Sequence record: PX092659.1
Reading direction: 5' to 3' (one strand)
DNA length: 64,000 bases
Origin: a phage
The notes below the pieces were generated by a model. The model made no database searches. It was not told the origin of the DNA and worked only from the letters and a program-made list of their open reading frames with translations. Made by a program: the position numbers and the translations under genes. Shown here in pieces: positions 6,925 through 64,000 of this stretch (position 1 is the stretch's first letter; the number at the start of each line of letters is the position of its first letter).

Positions 6925-7677
6925 ATGGGAAAAGCACGTCAAAAAAGAGAGAACCGCAACGGTTCAAGAAAGCGTGGCAACAAATATGAGAATAACGTAA
7001 TTCAGGCGGATTTTTCTAATGATTACGCTAACCCAGTTGCTAAATCCCTAGTAGGTAAAAACCGCGAGCAAAAATCATATATCAATATGATCAAGAACAA
7101 CACAGTGACTGTGGGTATTGGTGAGCCGGGTACAGGTAAAACCTTTATTCCGTCTGTTCTTGCAGCTCAGGAACTCGTAGACATTCACTCAGATATTGAG
7201 CAAGTGATCCTCGTACGTCCTAATGAACCTCTAGGTAAGTCTCTTGGTATGCTTCCTGGTGATCTAGCGGAAAAGCTAGAGCCTTGGTTGGAGCCAATAG
7301 CTGATGGTATGAAATGGGCCATCGGCGATCATGCGTATAAAGGATATGTCGAACGTCAGAAAATTAAATTTTTGGCTGTCGAACATGCTCGTGGCAGAAC
7401 TTTCAACAACTCCTATGTAATTGTCGATGAAGCTCAGAATATTTCCGTTGAGGCAATGATTTGTCTCCTAACTCGTGTAGGACAAGACTGCCGTTTAATT
7501 ATCTGCGGAGATATAGCTCAGAAAGACATTAAAGGTGACTCAGGTCTAGCACTCCTTATGGAAGTCTATGAGAAATACGAAAATGCCCCATTCTCAATGA
7601 TCGAATTGATTGATAACGTTCGTTCTGTCGAGTCTAAAGCATTCTATGATATTTTTAAAGACATGGGGAAGGTGTAA
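6925..7677 (+). CDS. phoH: PhoH-like ATPase
   Basis: Walker A GEPGTGKT; RBS taggag 6 nt upstream of ATG 6925 (ORF track starts at GTG 6916). Confidence 0.8.
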   Translation: MGKARQKRENRNGSRKRGNKYENNVIQADFSNDYANPVAKSLVGKNREQKSYINMIKNNTVTVGIGEPGTGKTFIPSVLAAQELVDIHSDIEQVILVRPNEPLGKSLGMLPGDLAEKLEPWLEPIADGMKWAIGDHAYKGYVERQKIKFLAVEHARGRTFNNSYVIVDEAQNISVEAMICLLTRVGQDCRLIICGDIAQKDIKGDSGLALLMEVYEKYENAPFSMIELIDNVRSVESKAFYDIFKDMGKV

Positions 7678-8042: not shown

Positions 8043-10373
8043 ATGAGCCATCGCATTGAAAAAGTAATTAAACGTGACGGTACTGTAGAAGACTTTGCTC
8101 CTGAAAAACTCAATGGTTGGGCAGAGTATGGTTGCAAAACAGTTGATGTAAGTTGGTCAGCCATTACTATGGCTGCTCAAAAAACTCTACCTAAAGGGGT
8201 TGTAGATTCCGACACTCTGATGGACGCATTAATTAAAGCTGCTGAAAGTCTTATCAAAGATAACCCAGCATACGATGTGCCAGCAAAGGAATTACGTCTT
8301 GCGCAAATGCGTAAGCGCCTTTATGACTCTTTCGAACCACCTTCTCTACGTTTCTTCCATGACCATATGGTTAGCGTAGGTGCATGGGAAGACATGAGTG
8401 CATGGATTACCGATGAGCAATTTGAAGCTCTGAATCAGGTTATCGATCATGATCGTGACCGTCTTTTTACTAGTGGTGGACTGAAACAGTTCTTTGATAA
8501 GTATTCCCGTCGTAACATAGCCACTGGTGAAATTTATGAAACCCCGCAGTTTGCCTACATGGGTATGGCAATGGCGATGTTATCTCAACCTAACTGGACA
8601 ATTCTAGATGCAATCGACCTCTACAACGCAATGTCGCTCCACAAAATCAACGTTCCTACGCCGCCACTGGTTGGTCTGCGCTCTAGTGACCGTGGATTTG
8701 CTAGTTGCTGCCTCGTGGATTCCACTGACACGTTGGATTCAATCGACACCGCCGAGCACATCGTCTTCAAAATGGTCGCAGCCAGAGCGGGAATCGGGTA
8801 TCATCTTGAAAGCCGATCAATTGCTGATCCGGTGCGAAATGGGGCATTCCCGCATTCCGGAAAACTGCCATATTATAGACACATTGACCGCTCAGTAAAG
8901 GCCAATACTCAGCAAACTCGTGGGGGTTCTGCCACAGTGTCTTATCCATACTTCGACCCTGAAATCATTCAATTGATGCAGGTTAAGCAACAACGTGCTA
9001 CAGATGAGAATAAAATCGATAAGATGGATTATTCTCTGAGCTTCAACAATCTTTTGTTAAAACGTTATCTGAAAAATGAAGATATTACGCTAATGTCATA
9101 CTTCTATGCTCCAGAAGTTCATGAAGCGTTTTATAGTGATGACGAGGCTAAATTTGAAGAAATCTACGTGGCAGCGGAGAAACGTGTGGCATCTCTTACA
9201 AAGATCGACCACGAAGGAAAAACAGTTCCTGCAGCTCCTAAAGTCTCTGCAAAAGAAATCCTAGATACTTGGCTACGTATCCGAATGGAAACAGGACGTA
9301 TGTATGCTCATCACATCGGGGAATCTAATCGTCACGGTAACTTCCTTGATCCGATCCGTATGACAAACCTTTGTGTTGAGATTACTCAGCCTACGCGCCC
9401 GTTCCATCATATCACAGAACTGTATAAGACAAAAGAGCAGCTTGATCAAATGAAGCCGGAGGATATTGGTGAAGTATCTCTGTGTAACTTAGGTGGTGTT
9501 GTACTTGGGCGCATGGAATCTCTGGCTGAGTGGGAAAAAACTTGCTACATCCTTCTGAAATTCGTTGATACAATTATCGAAATTCAGGATTATCCGTTCC
9601 CAACTATGGAATATACGGCTAAGAAACGTCGTAATGTTGGTATTGGTCTAATGAACGCAGCAGGTGCAATGGCAGCAGAAGGTCTGGCTTATGAAGGTAT
9701 TGAAGCCCGTAACTGGATTCACCGTGAGGCTGAAAAACTGTCTTACTTCCTGCATAAAGCCTCTGTACGCCTAGCTAGAGAACAGGGCGCATGTGAGTGG
9801 TTTGATCGTACTAAACCATCTAAAGGAATTCTGGTAATCGACACGTACAAGAAAACTGTTGATGAACTGGTATCCGTAGGTCTAGAAATGGATTGGGAGT
9901 CTCTGCGTGCAGATATTCTGAAATACGGTATGCGTAACTCTGTTCTGACTGCTCAGATGCCGGGGGAAAGTTCCTCTGTTCTGTTAGGTGTTACTAACTC
10001 TATCGAACCGCCTCGTAAGATTGTATCTATCAAGGGTAGTGCAGTAAATAAAGTAATTGCAATTGCTCCAGGTGCAACCGATTGGGAAACGTTAATGAGC
10101 TATAAATTGGCTTATGATGTAGATCGTATCGAGTGGATCAAATGGGTAGCAACTATGCAGAAATTCTTCAGTCAGTCTATCAGTACGAATATGTACTATG
10201 ACTACACTAAGTTTGAGAATGAAATCATTCCTGGCCCAGTAGTAGTTCGTGATTTCATGACTGCTGTTAAGTATGGGTGGAAAACTTGGTATTATGCTAA
10301 CTTCAATACCGCAAATGGTGGAGGTGCTGGAGAAGAAGCAGCCGGTTGTGCATCAGGTGGTTGTACTATTTAA
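8043..10373 (+). CDS. nrdA: ribonucleoside-diphosphate reductase large subunit (class Ia)
   Basis: ATP-cone start MSHRIEKVIKRDGTVEDF after RBS; motifs NLCVEI and CNLG; C-terminal CASGGC tail. Confidence 0.9.
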   Translation: MSHRIEKVIKRDGTVEDFAPEKLNGWAEYGCKTVDVSWSAITMAAQKTLPKGVVDSDTLMDALIKAAESLIKDNPAYDVPAKELRLAQMRKRLYDSFEPPSLRFFHDHMVSVGAWEDMSAWITDEQFEALNQVIDHDRDRLFTSGGLKQFFDKYSRRNIATGEIYETPQFAYMGMAMAMLSQPNWTILDAIDLYNAMSLHKINVPTPPLVGLRSSDRGFASCCLVDSTDTLDSIDTAEHIVFKMVAARAGIGYHLESRSIADPVRNGAFPHSGKLPYYRHIDRSVKANTQQTRGGSATVSYPYFDPEIIQLMQVKQQRATDENKIDKMDYSLSFNNLLLKRYLKNEDITLMSYFYAPEVHEAFYSDDEAKFEEIYVAAEKRVASLTKIDHEGKTVPAAPKVSAKEILDTWLRIRMETGRMYAHHIGESNRHGNFLDPIRMTNLCVEITQPTRPFHHITELYKTKEQLDQMKPEDIGEVSLCNLGGVVLGRMESLAEWEKTCYILLKFVDTIIEIQDYPFPTMEYTAKKRRNVGIGLMNAAGAMAAEGLAYEGIEARNWIHREAEKLSYFLHKASVRLAREQGACEWFDRTKPSKGILVIDTYKKTVDELVSVGLEMDWESLRADILKYGMRNSVLTAQMPGESSSVLLGVTNSIEPPRKIVSIKGSAVNKVIAIAPGATDWETLMSYKLAYDVDRIEWIKWVATMQKFFSQSISTNMYYDYTKFENEIIPGPVVVRDFMTAVKYGWKTWYYANFNTANGGGAGEEAAGCASGGCTI

Positions 10374-21066: not shown

Positions 21067-21090
21067 TACCCGCATGTAACATCTGAAATA

Positions 21091-21126
21091 AGCCCTGCGT
21101 TTCCTGGAGAGCGCAGGGCTTTTCTG
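21091..21126 (+). terminator. intrinsic terminator after SPFH gene
   Basis: 9-bp stem agccctgcg/cgcagggct followed by TTTTCTG. Confidence 0.7.
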
Positions 21127-23077: not shown

Positions 23078-23596
23078 ATGAATGTTGATGAGCTAACACA
23101 GCACCTCTTATCTAGAGGATTTGATACAGATAAATATCATTGCTGGTTAAGTCCGGAAGGATGGCTAACAGTCCCGTTGTATGACTTCTCTGGGATGTTG
23201 AGGGGCTATCAAACTTATAATCCTTCTGCTCCAAAAGGTCATGGTAAGTGCCCCTTTGAAGCTAAATACTTTACTTATTCTACTACCCAGTGTGTATGGG
23301 GACTAGAAACTCTCAATGGAGATGAAAAAGTAGTATTGATTGCTGAATCTGTATTTAAGGCAGTTGCGTTACATAATGCTGGTTATCCAGCCCTAGCAAT
23401 GTTGGGTTCTTCTCCAGGAAAAGCGTTATTAAAGCAACTGAAATTACTACCTTTTAAATTGGTAGCTGTCGGAGATAATGATCCTGCGGGTGAAAAATTT
23501 GCTAGAAAATTAAACGGCTTTGTTTCTCCCGTAGATGTGGATGAGATGTCTACCGAAAACTTGAAAAATTTTCTTGCTATGAAGCTAAATTTCTAA
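23078..23596 (+). CDS. small Toprim-domain-like protein
   Basis: Start MNVDELTQ after GAGG RBS; VVLIAESVFKA...LVAVGDNDPAGEKF resembles Toprim E...DxD. Confidence 0.5.
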   Translation: MNVDELTQHLLSRGFDTDKYHCWLSPEGWLTVPLYDFSGMLRGYQTYNPSAPKGHGKCPFEAKYFTYSTTQCVWGLETLNGDEKVVLIAESVFKAVALHNAGYPALAMLGSSPGKALLKQLKLLPFKLVAVGDNDPAGEKFARKLNGFVSPVDVDEMSTENLKNFLAMKLNF

Positions 23597-37446: not shown

Positions 37447-38198
37447 TGTCAGTATTAGTCGGTTTACATGGTGAAGCTGGTTCGGGAAAAGATACCGTTG
37501 CAAAATTAATTATCGATTGGTGTAATGACACGTATCCAACGTGTTTATCCCGTCGTTACCGTTTTGCTAAGCCCGTTTATGAACTTGCATCCGTAATCCT
37601 CGGTGTAACTCCAGAGTTTCTAGGAGAGCGCAGAGGAAAAGAGATTGACCAATGGTTTACGGTCACACAATCTCAATTGGAGCGAGCCAGAGATGTGTGG
37701 TTTAAGTACGGTATCGATAAGTTTGAAGACTTCTCGTACGTTTGGCCTATTTTTGAGGAAAAATATCTTAATCCTCAACAACTTATCTCAGAGAATAAAG
37801 AAGACGGACTTTATAGTTTATTTATTTCTCCGAGAAAAATGTTACAGCTCATAGGGACAGAGCTAGGAAGGCAGCTGGTGCATGAACGCATTTGGCTCAT
37901 AATTCTGGAGCAATCCATCGCTAAAGACGACCCAGATGTCGCCGTAATAACAGATGTTAGATTCCCCAATGAAGGAGAGTTACTCAGAGAAACAAACCAT
38001 TTAGATATGGATTCTTTGATAGTAAATGTAGTACCCGCTGAGCAGAAGTTCACTATTAAATCAGATCATCCATCTGAAAGTGGTATTCCTGCAAAATATA
38101 TTACTCACGAATTAGTTAATAAATTCGATGGTATCAATAACCTTAAACTAGAAGTTTATAACTTCTGTGACTTAGAGCTAGAACCACTAGTTGGATAA
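37446..38198 (+). CDS. dnk: P-loop kinase, dNMP-kinase-like
   Basis: Walker A GEAGSGKDT at N-terminus; 250 aa. Confidence 0.65.
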   Translation: MSVLVGLHGEAGSGKDTVAKLIIDWCNDTYPTCLSRRYRFAKPVYELASVILGVTPEFLGERRGKEIDQWFTVTQSQLERARDVWFKYGIDKFEDFSYVWPIFEEKYLNPQQLISENKEDGLYSLFISPRKMLQLIGTELGRQLVHERIWLIILEQSIAKDDPDVAVITDVRFPNEGELLRETNHLDMDSLIVNVVPAEQKFTIKSDHPSESGIPAKYITHELVNKFDGINNLKLEVYNFCDLELEPLVG

Positions 38199-47948: not shown

Positions 47949-48133
47949 TGGAAACTCTTTTTATTTTAATGCTAGTAGGTTCCTTGCTAGTTATACTAGC
48001 ACTTCTATTTATTTGCAATCTTCTTAATAAAGAGAACCTAGAGTTAAAGTGTGAGAACCAAATCCTTAACCGTGAGATTAAACAATATAATCTAGCAGCT
48101 CATAATCTGCTAGACAAACTGGAGAATAAGTAA
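47948..48133 (+). CDS. small membrane protein (61 aa)
   Basis: N-terminal TM helix then coiled coil. Confidence 0.45.
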   Translation: METLFILMLVGSLLVILALLFICNLLNKENLELKCENQILNREIKQYNLAAHNLLDKLENK

Positions 48134-48744
48134 TGACTTTTAATACACAACAATCTATTCAAGTAGTACCAGACCATGAACTGAATACGTGGGATTATAG
48201 CTTTAAAGATTTAACTGCTACTGTACAATTCAAATCTATGAAGCTAACATTTGCACACACTGACCTTAAAGCCTGTAAGGATTTTGAAGGTAAGCTCGGA
48301 GATGCTCGTAAGATCTTTGGCAAGGCTCGTATTCCAGCGGATAACCTTATTAATGCATTAATAGATGCTGGTTATAAACTCATGAAGGCTGAGGTAAACC
48401 GTCCTAGTGCTCCAGTAACTATTCGAAATCCGTGGCCGTCAGGGCCAATTACAGTGCGGAACAGTCCTAAAGTAACGTCGGATTTGCACAATGTTCCGTG
48501 CGGTGGCATTATAGAAAATAGTTCCTCATATCGAGTTGGTGAAGATTACGGCCCTTCTGTACAGCTGAAACATACTCAAGAAGCTTTTGAATCTGATATG
48601 CGAAGCGTAGCACCTGCGGATGCTGGAGTTTCTAGGGATTCTGTTTATACTATTCATTTTAATAATCCTGGTAAGCATGGAAGTCTAAATGATGCAATTA
48701 TGGAGGCACTGGGAGCTGTTATTAACGAAAGTAAAAAGGATTAA
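48133..48744 (+). CDS. hypothetical protein (203 aa)
   Basis: ORF, ATGA overlap. Confidence 0.5.
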   Translation: MTFNTQQSIQVVPDHELNTWDYSFKDLTATVQFKSMKLTFAHTDLKACKDFEGKLGDARKIFGKARIPADNLINALIDAGYKLMKAEVNRPSAPVTIRNPWPSGPITVRNSPKVTSDLHNVPCGGIIENSSSYRVGEDYGPSVQLKHTQEAFESDMRSVAPADAGVSRDSVYTIHFNNPGKHGSLNDAIMEALGAVINESKKD

Positions 48745-48823: not shown

Positions 48824-49708
48824 ATGTATAACTTTAAAGATAAACTAAGACAAAATGCTGGTAAAACAAAACCTAAAGAGAACAATAATATTCCTAATGC
48901 CAAAGTATTACCATTTCCAGAACTATCTCAAGAAGAAAAAGATAAATTAGCATTTATGTTTGATGCCCTTCTAGGGCTAAATGGACGTTTATATTCCTCA
49001 CTCAATATTAATGAGAAACGTTTAGTAGAGATGTTTTGTAAACGTTATCAAGTTACTTCAAAGGGCAATTCTTATAAAGAAGGCGAGAAAGCATTCACAG
49101 TCTTAAAAATCAGTGCATATGCACATCGTTTCTTAGTTTATGGGTTACAGATGGAATACTTCACCATCCCATCATTTAGCTCTTTCCATATCTTTGAAGA
49201 TGAACGAATGAATATTGATGATCTCTATGGGGATACGTACAAATATTCAGGAAGTCCATTCCATGATGCATTAAGAAGCTATCCTACTAGTTATCTGCCA
49301 GTTAGGGCATCACAAGGTAAAGCTAGCGTCTTCGCTGTGTACTCAGGATCTAAAGCATCGGATCTAGAAACTTATATATTTAAAGAGCGTAAATCTGTGC
49401 TTCCAGATGAAGCATTGTATAACAATCCGTTGCTTCCAGAAAAAGAACCAGAAAAAACTGATGTAACCCAACCAATCCCATCTGATTCTCAGTATTTAAT
49501 TTATGAGAAACAAGTTAAGTTATCTCTAGAAATTGGGTTAGTTACACCGCTTGCTGCAGCGTTCATAAATAGATATCTAGAAATTCCTGACGAGTTCCAC
49601 ACACGTTATAATACGAATATTCAGATAACAGATGAACTAATTGCGTTAGCAAAAGATACACCTACAGATACTGAGGCGTATCAAAAAGCATACCAAGAGT
49701 TACTGTAA
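48824..49708 (+). CDS. hypothetical protein (294 aa)
   Basis: ORF with GGAGA RBS; last plus-strand gene before the repeat region. Confidence 0.55.
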   Translation: MYNFKDKLRQNAGKTKPKENNNIPNAKVLPFPELSQEEKDKLAFMFDALLGLNGRLYSSLNINEKRLVEMFCKRYQVTSKGNSYKEGEKAFTVLKISAYAHRFLVYGLQMEYFTIPSFSSFHIFEDERMNIDDLYGDTYKYSGSPFHDALRSYPTSYLPVRASQGKASVFAVYSGSKASDLETYIFKERKSVLPDEALYNNPLLPEKEPEKTDVTQPIPSDSQYLIYEKQVKLSLEIGLVTPLAAAFINRYLEIPDEFHTRYNTNIQITDELIALAKDTPTDTEAYQKAYQELL

Positions 49709-50225
49709 GATCCTGCATGTCTCGGTGCACAATACCTGTACCGAGACAGAAATACAAACTCTCGTTGACAGATAGCTAAATGTATGTTATCATAACTCTA
49801 TGAGTTAATAGAATTAACCATTTAGAGTTGCCACACAGAAGGTGTGGTGGTTCAGTAATTTAAAATTACTAACTTGTAGCGTAGGATACGGAGCGACAGG
49901 ACAAGTTAATAAGTAATTTAATATAAATTGCTAGAAACATCACAAGACCTTCTGGCGGGGGCAAAGCTCTATATGAGAACCCTGGGGGATCTTATATTTA
50001 AAATAAAAGTAAAACTTTTGACCACATAATTTACATTCAAGATGATACACCTGTTGCCGCTCATCTGCTAGGATGGTACAACACTTTCTTCTAGACTCCT
50101 AAGTTTCTAGGGCAGTTTTCATTGTTCCTAGAAACTCCAGCAATAGGCGGTTAATACAGGGCGGTTATAGGGAGGGCGGTTATTTCTAGAAGACATTTTT
50201 TGAAAACACATTTCCAGAAATTACT

Positions 50226-50825
50226 GTCGGATTTGCACATTGTGTTTCTAGAAATTTATGGTCGGATTTGCACAAACGCCTAAGTTTTTAGGAACATATA
50301 ATCTCCTGAAAATAGCAGCATTATTTCGGGCCGAAGGCCCATGATTGCCTGAGTTTTTAGAGCCACAAGAATTTTCACTTGTCAAGCTATTTTGCCCCAT
50401 TTAGCTAATAAAATTTTACTTTTTCTGCACCTATCTCAAATTTCCCCAAATTATCTCAACTCTTCCCCAAAATCCCCGCAAATCAGGTGCTTCGCACCAA
50501 TCCTGCGCCCACATCCTTCTAGCTCCCAAATTTTTCTCGCTCTCTCATCTTCTCCTCAAACCTATACAATCACACACCCTCCAATCGAAGTCACAAAAAT
50601 CTTGTCGGATTCGCACATCTTAATCCTAGAAAAACCGTGTCGGATTTGCACATACCCCACAGGATTCGAACGCAGTTCGTGATTGCTGGAGTTTTTGGGA
50701 AAATTCGTCGTCGGATTCGCACATCACAAAAGTTTTTAGGGTCGGATTTGCACACTACCAAAAATTGTCGGATTCGCACATACACGCCAGCACGTAACCC
50801 TTGGAGCAAATGTCGGATTTGCACA
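50226..50825 (+). repeat. eight direct copies of GTCGGATT(T/C)GCACA
   Basis: Copies at 50226, 50261, 50604, 50639, 50710, 50741, 50767, 50812, all in the same orientation with irregular spacing. Confidence 0.85.
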
Positions 50826-50864
50826 AAAGCGCAGGGCAATTGCCCTGCTCGCCTGAATGCGAAT

Positions 50865-50957
50865 GATAATAAGAATCATTATCATTTAAAAAGCGAAATG
50901 AGAATGATAATAATTCGCATTTAAAAAGTGAAATGCGAATGATAATAATTCGCATTT
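50865..50957. promoter_or_regulatory. cluster of three AT-rich operator-like palindromes (Fur-box-like)
   Basis: 50865-50883 gataataagaatcattatc is 17/19 to GATAATGATAATCATTATC; 50896-50922 and 50931-50957 are 27-bp palindromes aaatg(a/c)gaatgataataattcgcattt. Confidence 0.45.
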
Positions 50958-50967
50958 AAGAATGGAA

Positions 50968-51099
50968 GTGAGAAACACTATTATTTAAGTTATCCACAGA
51001 CTTATTAACAGCACGATTTGACTTGACAGAATCCTAGCCATTTTGAGGCGTTATTAACAGACTTATCCACAGCTTATCCTACTGTATAAATATACAGTA
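50968..51099. repeat. left arm of ~130-bp imperfect inverted repeat carrying DnaA boxes and a LexA box
   Basis: Starts gtgagaaacact; TTATCCACA at 50990-50998 and 51063-51071, TTATTAACA variants at 51003 and 51050; about 80% identical to the reverse complement of 53916-54045. Confidence 0.8.
51080..51099. promoter_or_regulatory. LexA (SOS) box-like site
   Basis: TACTGTATAAATATACAGTA fits CTGT-N8-ACAG with AT spacer and TA flanks. Confidence 0.55.
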
Positions 51100-56427: not shown

Positions 56428-56835
56428 ATGACTAACGTTAAAACCGCAAAATTTTCTTGGAATGAAGAAAACACCCAGCAGGCTGTTACCATGTATCAGC
56501 AGTTAATTAACGAAAACGGTTTAGATTTCGCAAATAGCGACGGTTTAAAAGAAATTGCGAAAGCAGTTGGCGCGGCTTCTCCCGTGTCCGTTCGCTCAAA
56601 ATTGACCAGTGCAAAAGCGTATCAGAAAAGCGATAAGCCGCGCAAAGTTGGCGGCGGTAGCTCAATCCGCAAAGCGCATTATGTGCGCGTTATTGCAAAA
56701 CATGCCATCGATTCCGGCATTATCAAAGACGCTGACGATCTGGCATCACTGGAAAGCGCAAAATTGGAAACGCTGGACGCCGTGGCGCAACTGTTAGGCG
56801 TTGCCGATGAAGTGAAACAAGCCGCAGGCGAATAA
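56428..56835 (+). CDS. hypothetical protein (135 aa)
   Basis: ORF with AGGAG RBS; followed by palindrome agtggggaatattccccact. Confidence 0.5.
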   Translation: MTNVKTAKFSWNEENTQQAVTMYQQLINENGLDFANSDGLKEIAKAVGAASPVSVRSKLTSAKAYQKSDKPRKVGGGSSIRKAHYVRVIAKHAIDSGIIKDADDLASLESAKLETLDAVAQLLGVADEVKQAAGE

Positions 56836-60181: not shown

Positions 60182-60291
60182 AGTTAGCATGGTAATAGTA
60201 ACGGGGGTGGCGGTTAGCAGACTAAGTATTTTCGCCGGAGGCAGTGAGCACACCCTCATGTGTAATCTTATGAAATTTGGCAAAAGTCAAA

Positions 60292-63518: not shown

Positions 63519-64000
63519 ATGGCAAATGATGTATTAGTACCAGATCTTATGTCCCCTGAAGGGATGGATGTAATTGAAGCTTATTTACAGTGCGGCAGCG
63601 ATGTGCCTTCTGCCGCACGTAGTCTTGGAATGTCCGAAATTGCTTTCCGAGATATTATGAATCGTAGTGAGGTTAAGAACTACTTAAATGATATTTTTAT
63701 GGAGAGTGGTTTCCGTAATAGGGATCGTTTATTTGGTGTTCTGGATGAAGTTATTAAGCGTAAGCTGGAGGAACTAGAAGAAACTGGCATGGGTTCTGAC
63801 CAGGATATTATGGATATTCTCTGGAAAGCACACAAAATGAAGATGGAAGAAATGAAGATGATGGTGGAGTTAGAAAAAGCTAAAGCTGCCGTCCGTACTC
63901 CAGCTAACCAGACCAACATCCAGAATAATATTATTGCTGGAGCTGGGGATCAAAACTACATGGACTTAATTACTTCCCTAGCTACTGGAGGTAAGAAGTA
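63519..64000 (+). CDS. hypothetical protein, partial (runs off window end)
   Basis: ATG after AGGAGG RBS, open to window end; starts [22 protein letters not shown]. Confidence 0.5.

What the first reader, a model, noticed from the sequence alone, without database searches (positions are those of the whole stretch)
50226..50825. Eight same-orientation copies of a 14-bp motif GTCGGATT(T/C)GCACA
Irregularly spaced direct repeats in a ~600-bp stretch with no convincing coding capacity (the ORFs called here are low-complexity, overlap on both strands and lack RBS). Position between the early genes and the pre-early-type genes fits a terminal-repeat boundary or injection-stop region. The motif looks like iterated binding sites for a sequence-specific protein.
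Basis: seen in the sequence. Interest (0 to 1): 0.6.

Follow-up and report, generated by a model that had tools for sequence, protein, structure and literature searches.

The report
T5 'direct repeat D' motif array
The eight repeats are real, but they are the already-catalogued "direct repeat D" elements at the terminal-repeat end / injection-stop region of T5-like phages: conserved, same-direction docking sites for a protein that nobody has yet identified.

Summary
Observation confirmed: GTCGGATTYGCACA occurs exactly eight times at the stated coordinates, all on the + strand (0 expected). A ninth copy lies at 48477.

The stretch is non-coding and ~92% identical to phage T5's left-terminal-repeat end. 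GenBank AY587007 already annotates these repeats as "direct repeat D copies 1-10", and AY543070 marks the region as the injection stop signal. The feature is therefore already known. Its function is not: the literature to 2026 assigns none.

What I added:
- The array belongs to a module conserved across Demerecviridae (nine genera or lineages, including Vibrio and Aeromonas phages): same-strand repeats, then a GCGC nick site/hairpin, then AT-rich repeats, then DnaA boxes.
- The motif drifts between lineages while the DnaA boxes stay perfect. This suggests a co-evolving phage-encoded reader rather than DnaA.
- The terminal-repeat cut (window 50359|50360) and the nick sites have their own sequence signatures. 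Neither needs the motif.

Best guess (about 0.35): binding sites for the essential pre-early DNA-binding protein A2, acting when DNA transfer restarts. Main rival (about 0.25): a recognition array for the small terminase subunit (SciB). Neither is demonstrated.

The parts
50226..50239 (+). Motif copy (T5 direct repeat D copy 8), outside the terminal repeat
   Evidence: Exact match; corresponds to AY587007 'direct repeat D copy 8'
50261..50274 (+). Motif copy (T5 DRD copy 7), outside the terminal repeat, 99 bp before the cut
50306..50425 (.). Most conserved block of the region. It holds the terminal-repeat boundary (cut inferred at 50359|50360, within GAGTTTTTA|GAGCCACAAGAATTTT), preceded by the hairpin GGGCCgaaGGCCC (50330-50342)
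   Evidence: Highest conservation among 22 arrays; only segment alignable to Klebsiella phages; identical boundary in T5 (two records), phiR2-01, Sw2, EscoHU1 and KpGranit
50432..50470 (+). Two CT-rich direct repeats (T5 'direct repeat A' copies 2-3)
   Evidence: the repeat finder D15; AY587007 annotation
50604..50617 (+). Motif copy (DRD copy 6), first copy inside the terminal repeat
50639..50652 (+). Motif copy (DRD copy 5)
   Evidence: least conserved copy (0.61)
50710..50723 (+). Motif copy (DRD copy 4)
50741..50754 (+). Motif copy (DRD copy 3)
50767..50780 (+). Motif copy (DRD copy 2)
50812..50825 (+). Motif copy (DRD copy 1), 3 nt from the GCGC nick site
50794..50836 (+). Homologue of T5 major nick 1 (7.9%): bipartite signature GTAAC-N30-|GCGCAGGG, with motif copy 1 filling the spacer
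   Evidence: AY587007/AY543070 nick annotation; bipartite pattern search
50831..50848 (-). Palindrome J: GC-rich hairpin, terminator-like on the minus strand (end of the pre-early transcription unit)
   Evidence: AY587007 annotation; terminator scan
50856..50966 (+). AT-rich ~35-bp repeats/palindromes (T5 'direct repeat C')
   Evidence: the repeat finder D1, I1; AY587007 annotation
50989..51073 (+). Paired DnaA-box repeats (T5 'direct repeat B'): TTATCCACA at 50990 and 51063 plus TTATTAACA variants, same strand as the motif
   Evidence: Sequence; the repeat finder D10; scan; Davison preprint
48477..48490 (+). Ninth motif copy (T5 DRD copy 10), inside the early ORF 48133-48744
   Evidence: conserved in T5, phiR2-01, EscoHU1 and (one substitution) Sw2
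56428..56835 (+). Gene A2: candidate reader of the motif (pre-early DNA-binding protein)
63519..64000 (+). Small terminase subunit gene (= sciB of the old T5 maps; stop codon cut by the window end): rival candidate reader
   Evidence: Translation; annotations; P0068 is 100% identical
60250..60251 (.). Far end of the terminal repeat (homologue of T5 position 1). No motif copy nearby and no similarity to the near end
   Evidence: Local BLAST against the T5 RTR junction

Best explanation
The eight copies (nine with 48477) are the 'direct repeat D' (DRD) elements of the T5-type terminal-repeat end. They form an array of asymmetric, co-oriented binding sites for a phage-encoded sequence-specific protein.

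Shown:
- The copies are homologous to T5 DRD copies 1-8 and 10.
- They are part of a module conserved across the Demerecviridae. In window + orientation its order is: early genes, DRD array, GCGC nick site / GC hairpin, AT-rich repeats, DnaA boxes, pre-early genes.
- The motif sequence drifts from lineage to lineage while the DnaA boxes stay at consensus.

Inferred (my preferred mechanism, roughly one chance in three):
- First-step transfer halts at about the nick/hairpin. The array is therefore the first DNA to follow it into the cell.
- A2, made from the already-injected DNA, would bind successive copies as they emerge. Copy 1 is 3 nt past the nick site and the next copies follow at 26-45 bp steps. 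Binding would stop back-sliding and hand the DNA to the A1/A2 machinery, so that second-step transfer restarts.
- Uniform orientation would reflect the directional nature of that process.
For: Identity and homology:
- 92% identity to the T5 LTR end.
- AY587007 annotates the same 14-mers as direct repeat D copies 1-10.
- AY543070 annotates the iss across copies 1-6.

Conservation pattern:
- Every copy is on one strand in all 35 multi-copy IMG/VR loci and in 10 lineage representatives.
- The motif is retained where the flanks no longer align: KpGranit, Chester, phi3, PG07 and D116, AhSzq-1.
- The motif drifts (TCGGATTTGCAC to TCRGTTTTGCAC, TAGAATCCGCAC, TCGAATWWSTAC) while TTATCCACA boxes stay perfect. 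This suggests a co-evolving phage-encoded reader.
- The order of the array relative to the nick/hairpin, AT-rich repeats and DnaA boxes is constant. Its position relative to the terminal-repeat cut is not.

A2 as candidate:
- No array-flanking gene is conserved family-wide; only A2 matched.
- A2 is conserved family-wide.
- It is essential, needed for second-step transfer, DNA-binding, and has no known target (2026 preprint).
- The putative recognition helix SVR(S)KL is nearly invariant across the family. The variable residue differs (G, T, Q) in the three lineages with the most altered motifs.
Against: - No binding data exist. The A2-motif pairing is inference from co-conservation in a handful of lineages.
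- At the pause the array may still be outside the cytoplasm, where A2 cannot reach it.
- The FST end-point (7.9-8.3%) is too imprecise to say which side of the array it lies on.
- Extra copies far from the stop point are not predicted by a restart role, although in entry order they also follow a nick. These are 48477 in an ORF, and a tandem pair in T5 gene D13 ~360 bp from the 64.8% nick.
- The Proteus phage keeps A2 but has only one clear copy.
- The last copy's constant adjacency to a nick site, and the array's proximity to the terminase cut, are equally well or better explained by the terminase rival.
- A2 has been described only as a general DNA-binding protein (my recollection of the 1980s work; not checked here).
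Confidence: 0.35

Rival explanations
1. Recognition array for the small terminase subunit (cosB/pac-like). The small terminase subunit (TerS, the old sciB gene) would oligomerise on the co-oriented repeats at the concatemer junction and position the large subunit. The large subunit would then make the terminal-repeat-end cut in the gap between copies 7 and 6, and the adjacent 7.9%/99.5% nick.
For: - The repeat boundary lies inside the array or within 40 bp of it in every lineage with mapped ends: T5, phiR2-01, Sw2, EscoHU1, KpGranit, phi3 and Chester.
- The last copy abuts the GCGC nick site in 8 of 10 lineages.
- The gene annotated as small terminase is sciB. sciA and sciB are the late genes reported to control nicking (PMC3517423).
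- A perfect motif + 3 nt + GCGC composite has arisen independently at the 64.8% nick position in phiR2-01, and a tandem motif pair lies ~360 bp from that nick in T5 and phiR2-01.
- From established knowledge of lambda cosB and SPP1 pac, a ring oligomer wrapping DNA would see its sites as direct repeats.
Against: - The geometry between the array and the cut is not conserved. In Chester the whole array is outside the repeat, on the far side of the hairpin.
- The cut site has its own conserved sequence.
- Nick sites have their own bipartite signature, and two of the four major nicks lack any motif copy.
- The TerS N-terminal helix-turn-helix segment is poorly conserved between T5 and Chester although both have the TCGGATTTGCAC core.
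- The TerS model is poor (pLDDT 59.5).
- I could not read the original sciB papers.
Confidence: 0.25
2. Iterons of a replication origin. The module of co-oriented repeats, GC-rich element, AT-rich repeats and DnaA boxes is a theta-type origin. The repeats bind a phage initiator, for example the N-terminal part of the origin-binding-protein-like helicase T5.108, or D5.
For: - The architecture matches plasmid and phage origins. Davison notes the resemblance to oriC.
- T5.108 matches Pfam Herpes_ori_bp and solved herpes origin-binding proteins.
- A nick with a 3'-OH pointing into the repeat lies beside copy 1, and the T5 polymerase annotation notes strand displacement from nicks.
Against: - The T5.108 match covers only the helicase core (profile positions 46-197 of 820), not the DNA-binding domain.
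- The spacing is irregular (13-45 bp, plus a 343-bp gap) rather than helically phased.
- No initiator gene is linked to the array.
- The literature places T5 origins near the genome centre (Davison citing electron-microscopy studies).
Confidence: 0.08
3. Host-factor sites that cause the injection stop. Examples are an extended set of low-affinity DnaA boxes (ATTTGCACA is 8/9 of TTWTNCACA and has the same orientation as the true boxes), or sites for another conserved host protein, tethering the entering DNA at the membrane.
For: - The stop needs no phage protein synthesis (literature summarised).
- The 3' half of the motif resembles a DnaA box, and true boxes lie 180-250 bp away on the same strand.
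- Davison's DnaA-tether model.
Against: - The final A of the box is not conserved (GCACC in Chester, GCACT in the 122-kb contig), and the 3' half becomes STAC in the Aeromonas phage. True DnaA boxes stay perfect in the same loci.
- The invariant 5' half TCGG/TCGA has no counterpart in a DnaA box.
- Lineage-specific drift suggests a phage-encoded partner.
Confidence: 0.05
4. No function of their own: repeats left over from local duplication or slippage in a tolerant non-coding region.
For: The 63-bp unit 50218-50280 resembles 50596-50658 at 73% (repeat finder D4), so some copies did arise by segmental duplication.
Against: - Motif columns are more conserved than spacers.
- The motif survives where the flanks are unalignable, across subfamilies, always co-oriented and at the same place in the module.
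Confidence: 0.02

Closest known systems
Direct repeat D (DRD) of phage T5 'Repeat Region 3' / injection-stop-signal region (GenBank AY587007, Wang et al. 2005; Davison preprint 10.1101/866236)
   Same: The 14-mer, strand, order and neighbours are the same (direct repeat A, nick 1, palindrome J, direct repeats C and B). The segment is 92% identical overall. Copies straddle the end of the terminal repeat in the same way.
   Different: The window has 8+1 copies where T5 has 9+1: T5's degenerate copy 9 has no counterpart here. Some spacers differ by indels, for example 35 bp between copies 6 and 5 here against 25 bp in T5. The window record carries a single repeat copy joined to the pb5 side.
Terminase recognition arrays next to a cut site (lambda cosB R-sites; SPP1 pacL/pacR boxes). 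Recalled from established literature, not tested here
   Same: Several short repeats lie within a few hundred bp of a sequence-specific terminase cut, on both sides of it.
   Different: No binding is shown. The distance and side relative to the cut vary between lineages. The cut site carries its own conserved sequence.
Iterons of theta-replicating plasmids and phage origins (P1 oriR, F oriS, RK2 oriV, lambda ori). Recalled from established literature
   Same: Co-oriented direct repeats lie next to an AT-rich segment and DnaA boxes.
   Different: The repeats are shorter (12-14 bp against 17-22 bp) and irregularly spaced. There is no linked initiator gene and no evidence of origin activity.
DnaA boxes (TTWTNCACA)
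   Same: The 3' nine bases of most copies match 8 of 9 positions, in the same orientation as the nearby true boxes.
   Different: The consensus is not met. Conservation extends 5' rather than covering the box. The box-defining final A is lost in other lineages.

Membership tests
T5 direct repeat D (DRD) array | 14-15-bp motif (T)GTCGGATTYGCACA | tested here: met
   Eight exact matches plus one; the T5 annotated copies have the same sequence
T5 direct repeat D (DRD) array | Located between the T5.018 homologue and major nick 1 / palindrome J, straddling the end of the terminal repeat | tested here: met
   92% identity and colinearity with AY587007/AY543070; boundary at 50359|50360
T5 direct repeat D (DRD) array | All copies in one orientation | tested here: met
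Injection stop signal (iss) of T5 | Lies in the segment annotated or mapped as iss | tested here: met
   Copies at 50604-50825 are homologous to AY543070 9140-10149, annotated 'iss'. Copies at 50226 and 50261 lie outside it
Injection stop signal (iss) of T5 | Cis-acting requirement for halting DNA transfer | not testable with these tools
   Needs phage genetics. Davison's candidates for the stop itself are the DnaA-box inverted repeats and the DRE repeats, not DRD
DnaA box | 9/9 match to TTWTNCACA | tested here: not met
   ATTTGCACA matches 8/9 and ATTCGCACA 7/9 (sequence). Family variants lose the final A
Terminase small-subunit recognition site (cosB/pac-like) | Fixed position next to the terminase cut site | tested here: inconclusive
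   Within 40-250 bp of the cut in all lineages with mapped ends, but on different sides and at different distances
Terminase small-subunit recognition site (cosB/pac-like) | Specific binding by TerS | not testable with these tools
   The TerS model is of low confidence. No protein-DNA prediction is available
Replication-origin iterons | Direct repeats adjacent to an AT-rich unwinding element and DnaA boxes | tested here: met
Replication-origin iterons | Linked cognate initiator gene; regular, helically phased spacing | tested here: not met
   No conserved flanking gene; spacings of 26, 31, 35, 45, 71 and 343 bp
T5 nick-site recognition element | Present at all major nick sites | tested here: not met
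   The nick homologues at 21111 (32.6%) and 37628 (18.3%) have no copy. Nick sites instead share GTAAY-N28-31-GCGCRGR

The most novel reading that the evidence does not exclude
The DRD array is the missing cis element of T5's two-step DNA delivery. It would be a family-wide set of co-oriented sites read by one of two conserved phage proteins. One is the essential pre-early protein A2. The other is the small terminase subunit SciB. On this reading the array physically couples the end of the first-step DNA, the adjacent conserved nick and the terminal-repeat end.
Probability: 0.3. Interest if true: 0.65.

Novelty: already known. Interest (0 to 1): 0.3.

Why it matters
How T5 stops and then restarts DNA injection has been an open question since the 1960s. 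The target of the essential DNA-binding protein A2 is still unknown in 2026. The repeats themselves are not a discovery. The comparative evidence assembled here is what adds value:
- They are a deeply conserved element that co-evolves with its reader and sits immediately after the stop point.
- The terminal-repeat cut site and the nick sites each have their own sequence signature, which separates those functions from the repeats.

This turns the repeats into a concrete, cheap test: A2 or TerS band-shift assays on one 600-bp fragment, and one scrambled-motif phage.

Tried and rejected
- **Promoters:** no sigma-70-like site overlaps any copy.
- **Structured RNA:** no Rfam match near a gathering score.
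- **Coding sequence:** rejected by the indel pattern and the absence of PHROG hits.
- **DnaA boxes:** rejected on family-wide variation.
- **General guide for nicking:** rejected, because two verified major-nick homologues lack the motif.
- **Herpes UL9-type origin-binding specificity** (I recalled that its GTTCGCAC site resembles the core): T5.108 matches only the helicase core of that family, so no shared DNA-binding domain is supported.
- **Cognate binding protein encoded next to the array:** no flanking gene is conserved beyond the Klebsiella phages.
- **Second 'motif + GCGC' composite as a general feature:** the IMG/VR scan found it only at the main array, so it is specific to phiR2-01.
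- **DNA-level constraint on the D13 tandem pair:** not resolvable, because the flanks are equally conserved in close relatives and the pair is absent in KpGranit.
- **TerS structure:** model too poor to use.
- **Aeromonas phages as a natural A2-minus control:** they do have an annotated A2.
- **Packaging direction:** I first inferred that the right end is packaged first (last in, first out). PMC3517423 states the left end is packed first, so I do not rely on either.
- **Unavailable papers:** Davison 2015, Rhoades 1984 and Rogers 1979.
- **Uninformative search:** (megablast of the 21-kb nick region) did not list T5.
- **CRISPR-like array:** dismissed by inspection. The repeat is 14 bp and the spacers run from 12 to 329 bp.

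Full report
**1. The observation**

The pattern GTCGGATTYGCACA matches exactly at 50226, 50261, 50604, 50639, 50710, 50741, 50767 and 50812. All eight copies are on the + strand, and dinucleotide-preserving shuffles gave no matches. Allowing two mismatches adds one weak hit in 64 kb.

The stretch is non-coding:
- Among 22 distinct related arrays, 25 of 26 indel events are not multiples of three.
- The five local ORFs match no PHROG family.
- Nothing approaches an Rfam gathering score.

**2. What it is**

The segment 49900-51200 is ~92% identical, in reverse orientation, to the end of the left terminal repeat of phage T5. GenBank AY587007 annotates the very same 14-15-mers as "direct repeat D copy 1-10". 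Copies 1-6 lie inside the repeat next to "major single-stranded nick 1, 7.9%" and palindrome J. Copies 7-9 lie just outside the repeat, and copy 10 lies in ORF019. AY543070 annotates 9140-10149 as "injection stop signal (iss)". Davison's preprint lists "nine DRD repeats" as one of three repeat classes of "Repeat Region 3". It proposes the DnaA-box inverted repeats and the DRE repeats as the iss, and assigns no function to DRD. [quoted passage not shown] The feature is therefore known and named, and its function is open.

**3. Layout in the window**

The window carries one repeat copy, joined on its far side to the pb5/terminase end of the genome. This is the concatemer-junction arrangement. 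The array sits in a 1.8-kb convergent intergenic region, with early genes ending at 49708 on the + strand and pre-early genes from 51547 on the - strand. Reading left to right, the elements are:

| Coordinates | Element |
|---|---|
| 50226, 50261 | motif copies 8 and 7 |
| 50306-50425 | the most conserved block of the region |
| 50432-50470 | direct repeat A |
| 50604-50825 | motif copies 6 to 1 |
| 50829 | GCGCAGGG, the nick-1 homologue |
| 50831-50848 | palindrome J, terminator-like on the - strand |
| 50856-50966 | AT-rich direct repeat C |
| 50990, 51063 | paired DnaA boxes |

**4. The terminal-repeat boundary**

The annotated boundaries of T5 (two records), phiR2-01, Sw2 (PhageTerm), EscoHU1 and KpGranit (PhageTerm) all fall at the same position...GTTTTTA | GAGCCACARGAATTTT.... 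This places the window's boundary at 50359|50360, between copies 7 and 6. This block is also the only part of the region that still aligns to the Klebsiella phages.

The far end of the repeat maps to 60250|60251, which gives a repeat of about 9.9 kb. The far end has no motif copy and no similarity to the near end. These boundaries are inferred by homology and were not measured for this phage.

**5. Family-wide comparison (beyond what I found in the literature)**

An exact-match scan of IMG/VR found arrays of three or more copies only in 96-122-kb contigs. In all 35 such loci every copy is on one strand. Representatives of other genera show the same module with lineage-specific versions of the motif:

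| Lineage | Motif and copies |
|---|---|
| KpGranit (Sugarlandvirus) | RTCGGAWWYGCACA, 10 copies, flanks unalignable |
| 122-kb contig (probably Pectobacterium phage My1, from memory) | RTCGGATTTGCACW, 17/27-bp spacing |
| Chester (Thalassavirus) | T(C/A)G(G/A)ATTTGCAC, 8 copies |
| phi 3 (V. cholerae phage) | TC(A/G)GTTTTGCAC, 12 copies, 17-bp spacing |
| PG07 | TAGAATCCGCAC |
| D116 | T(T/A)G(A/G)(A/T)TTCGCAC |
| Proteus phage | one clear copy, GTCGATTACGCACA |
| AhSzq-1 (Aeromonas phage) | TCGAAT(T/A)(T/A)(C/G)TAC |

In each lineage the array is followed by a GCGCRG site, usually within a GC hairpin. In 8 of 10 lineages that site is 2-14 nt after the last copy. AT-rich or 8-bp tandem repeats come next, and then perfect TTATCCACA boxes. 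The per-lineage patterns were fitted to the observed copies. The informative part is that the same patterns find no copy on the opposite strand.

**6. What the comparison excludes**

- **DnaA boxes.** The 3' half resembles a box (8/9 positions). However, the box-defining final A is lost in Chester and in the 122-kb contig, and the whole 3' half changes in the Aeromonas phage. True boxes in the same loci stay at consensus.
- **Promoters.** No promoter-like site overlaps a copy.
- **A general nick guide.** Window 21111 and 37628 are homologues of T5's annotated nicks 3 (32.6%) and 2 (18.3%), and neither has a copy. All four distinct major nick sites instead share GTAAY about 35 nt upstream of |GCGCRGR. 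That bipartite pattern hits three sites in the window (0.11 expected) and one in T5 58-105 kb, the annotated 64.8% nick. Plain GCGCRGR occurs 17 times in the window. The pattern was derived from these same sites, so only its specificity is informative.
- **A linked cognate gene.** No array-flanking gene is conserved family-wide.
- **A herpes-type origin-binding specificity.** T5.108 matches that family only in the helicase core.

**7. Who reads the motif?**

The motif drifts while the DnaA boxes stay fixed. This suggests a phage-encoded, family-wide, co-evolving protein. Two candidates stand out.

*A2.*
- It is conserved family-wide, essential, required for second-step transfer, and DNA-binding with an unknown target.
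- Its putative recognition helix SVRxKL is nearly invariant. The x residue is S in T5, Chester, D116 and PG07, but G, T and Q in phi 3, Proteus and AhSzq-1, the lineages with the most altered motifs. That is only seven sequences, so it is suggestive and no more.

*TerS.*
- It is the old sciB gene. sciA and sciB are the late genes reported to control nicking.
- The repeat cut always lies in the array or within 40 bp of it.
- T5 has an unannotated tandem pair of near-perfect copies at 78935-78963, inside D13, on the same strand and ~360 bp from the 64.8% nick. The pair is identical in phiR2-01.
- In phiR2-01 the 64.8% nick position itself reads GTCGGATTTGCACA-aga-GCGC. This is the same composite as copy 1 plus nick 1, and the D13 protein is locally rewritten there.
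- Against TerS: the cut and the nicks have their own signatures; the array-to-cut geometry is not conserved, since in Chester the whole array lies outside the repeat; and the TerS helix-turn-helix segment differs strongly between T5 and Chester although they share the motif core.

**8. Most likely mechanism**

Shown: the array's position relative to the nick/hairpin, AT-rich repeats and DnaA boxes is constant, while its position relative to the cut is not.

Inferred: the array belongs functionally to the first-step-end module rather than to the cutting reaction. I favour A2 binding to successive copies as the first DNA beyond the pause point enters, ratcheting or handing the DNA on for second-step transfer (confidence ~0.35). 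The terminase-recognition model is close behind (~0.25). Origin iterons (~0.08), host-factor sites (~0.05) and non-functional repeats (~0.02) follow.

**9. Verdict**

This is a real, highly non-random and correctly located feature, but it is already catalogued (direct repeat D of T5). Its interest lies in the still-unassigned function and in a cheap, decisive experiment, not in novelty of kind.

Noticed in passing
window 21076-21117, 37593-37634, 50794-50835 (all +); T5 locus L136 20568-20608 (-): All four distinct T5-type major nick sites share a second element, GTAAY, about 35 nt upstream of |GCGCRGR. The bipartite pattern finds only these sites (0.11 expected in the window), while plain GCGCRGR occurs 17 times. 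This may be the 'additional sequence' that the literature says nick recognition must need. The pattern was derived from the same sites, so only its specificity is informative.
   Followed up: partly
window 50330-50375; loci L001, L002, L004-L007: The terminal-repeat boundary is at an identical sequence in six independently annotated genomes of three genera: ...GTTTTTA|GAGCCACARGAATTTT. A GC hairpin lies 18-28 nt upstream. Its sequence differs between T5-like phages (GGGCCgaaGGCCC) and KpGranit (CACGGTGtgtCACCGTG), but its position is kept.
   Followed up: partly
window 49364-50739, plus exact copies at 23303(-), 29159, 37614, 41749(-), 48626, 60637: A second motif, GAGTTTYTAG, is enriched (31 matches with up to 1 mismatch, against 12 +/- 4 expected) and clustered around the array. 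One exact copy ends at the terminal-repeat cut, and another lies 4 nt before the 18.3% nick homologue.
   Followed up: partly
T5 AY543070 78935-78963 (locus L136 20936-20964, - strand); phiR2-01 locus L159 6067-6080 and 6425-6453: A tandem pair of near-perfect motif copies lies inside gene D13, ~360 bp from the 64.8% nick. It is not in the T5 repeat annotation. It is present once per contig in about 20 T5-like contigs and absent in KpGranit. In phiR2-01 a perfect copy + 3 nt + GCGC sits exactly at the nick position, with the D13 protein locally rewritten (PAPTDQNE to SALLCKSD).
   Followed up: partly
window 63519-64000; T5 AY587007 108016-108498: The gene now annotated 'terminase small subunit' in T5-like phages is the old genetic locus sciB (single-chain interruption). 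If the old mapping is right, this links terminase to site-specific nicking.
   Followed up: partly
window 50146-50182; AhSzq-1 locus L169 ~8270-8295 (- strand); Proteus locus L131 ~3052: Three GGCGGTTA repeats lie just upstream of the array. Similar GGGCGGTT(T/A) pairs occur at the equivalent place in an Aeromonas phage, and one similar GGGCGGTT occurs there in a Proteus phage. This may be another conserved element of the module.
   Followed up: no
window 49765-49793 (+): A strong sigma-70-like promoter match (TTGACA, 17 nt, TATCAT with an upstream TG) lies just after the last early ORF and points into the non-coding array.
   Followed up: no
Vibrio phage Chester locus L129 6530-6650; AhSzq-1 locus L169 (- strand) ~7300-7540; D116 locus L132 4409-4609: In Vibrio and Aeromonas relatives, the place of T5's 35-bp 'direct repeat C' is taken by long runs of 8-bp-periodic tandem repeats (TCTAGACT/TCTATCCA type). 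This suggests that a structural or periodic property, rather than a specific sequence, is conserved there.
   Followed up: no
window 48477-48490 in ORF 48133-48744: The intragenic ninth copy is kept in T5, phiR2-01 and EscoHU1. In Sw2 it changes to GTCGGATATGCACA, a variant also used in KpGranit's array, at the cost of a Leu-to-Met change. This hints at selection on the DNA site rather than on the protein.
   Followed up: partly
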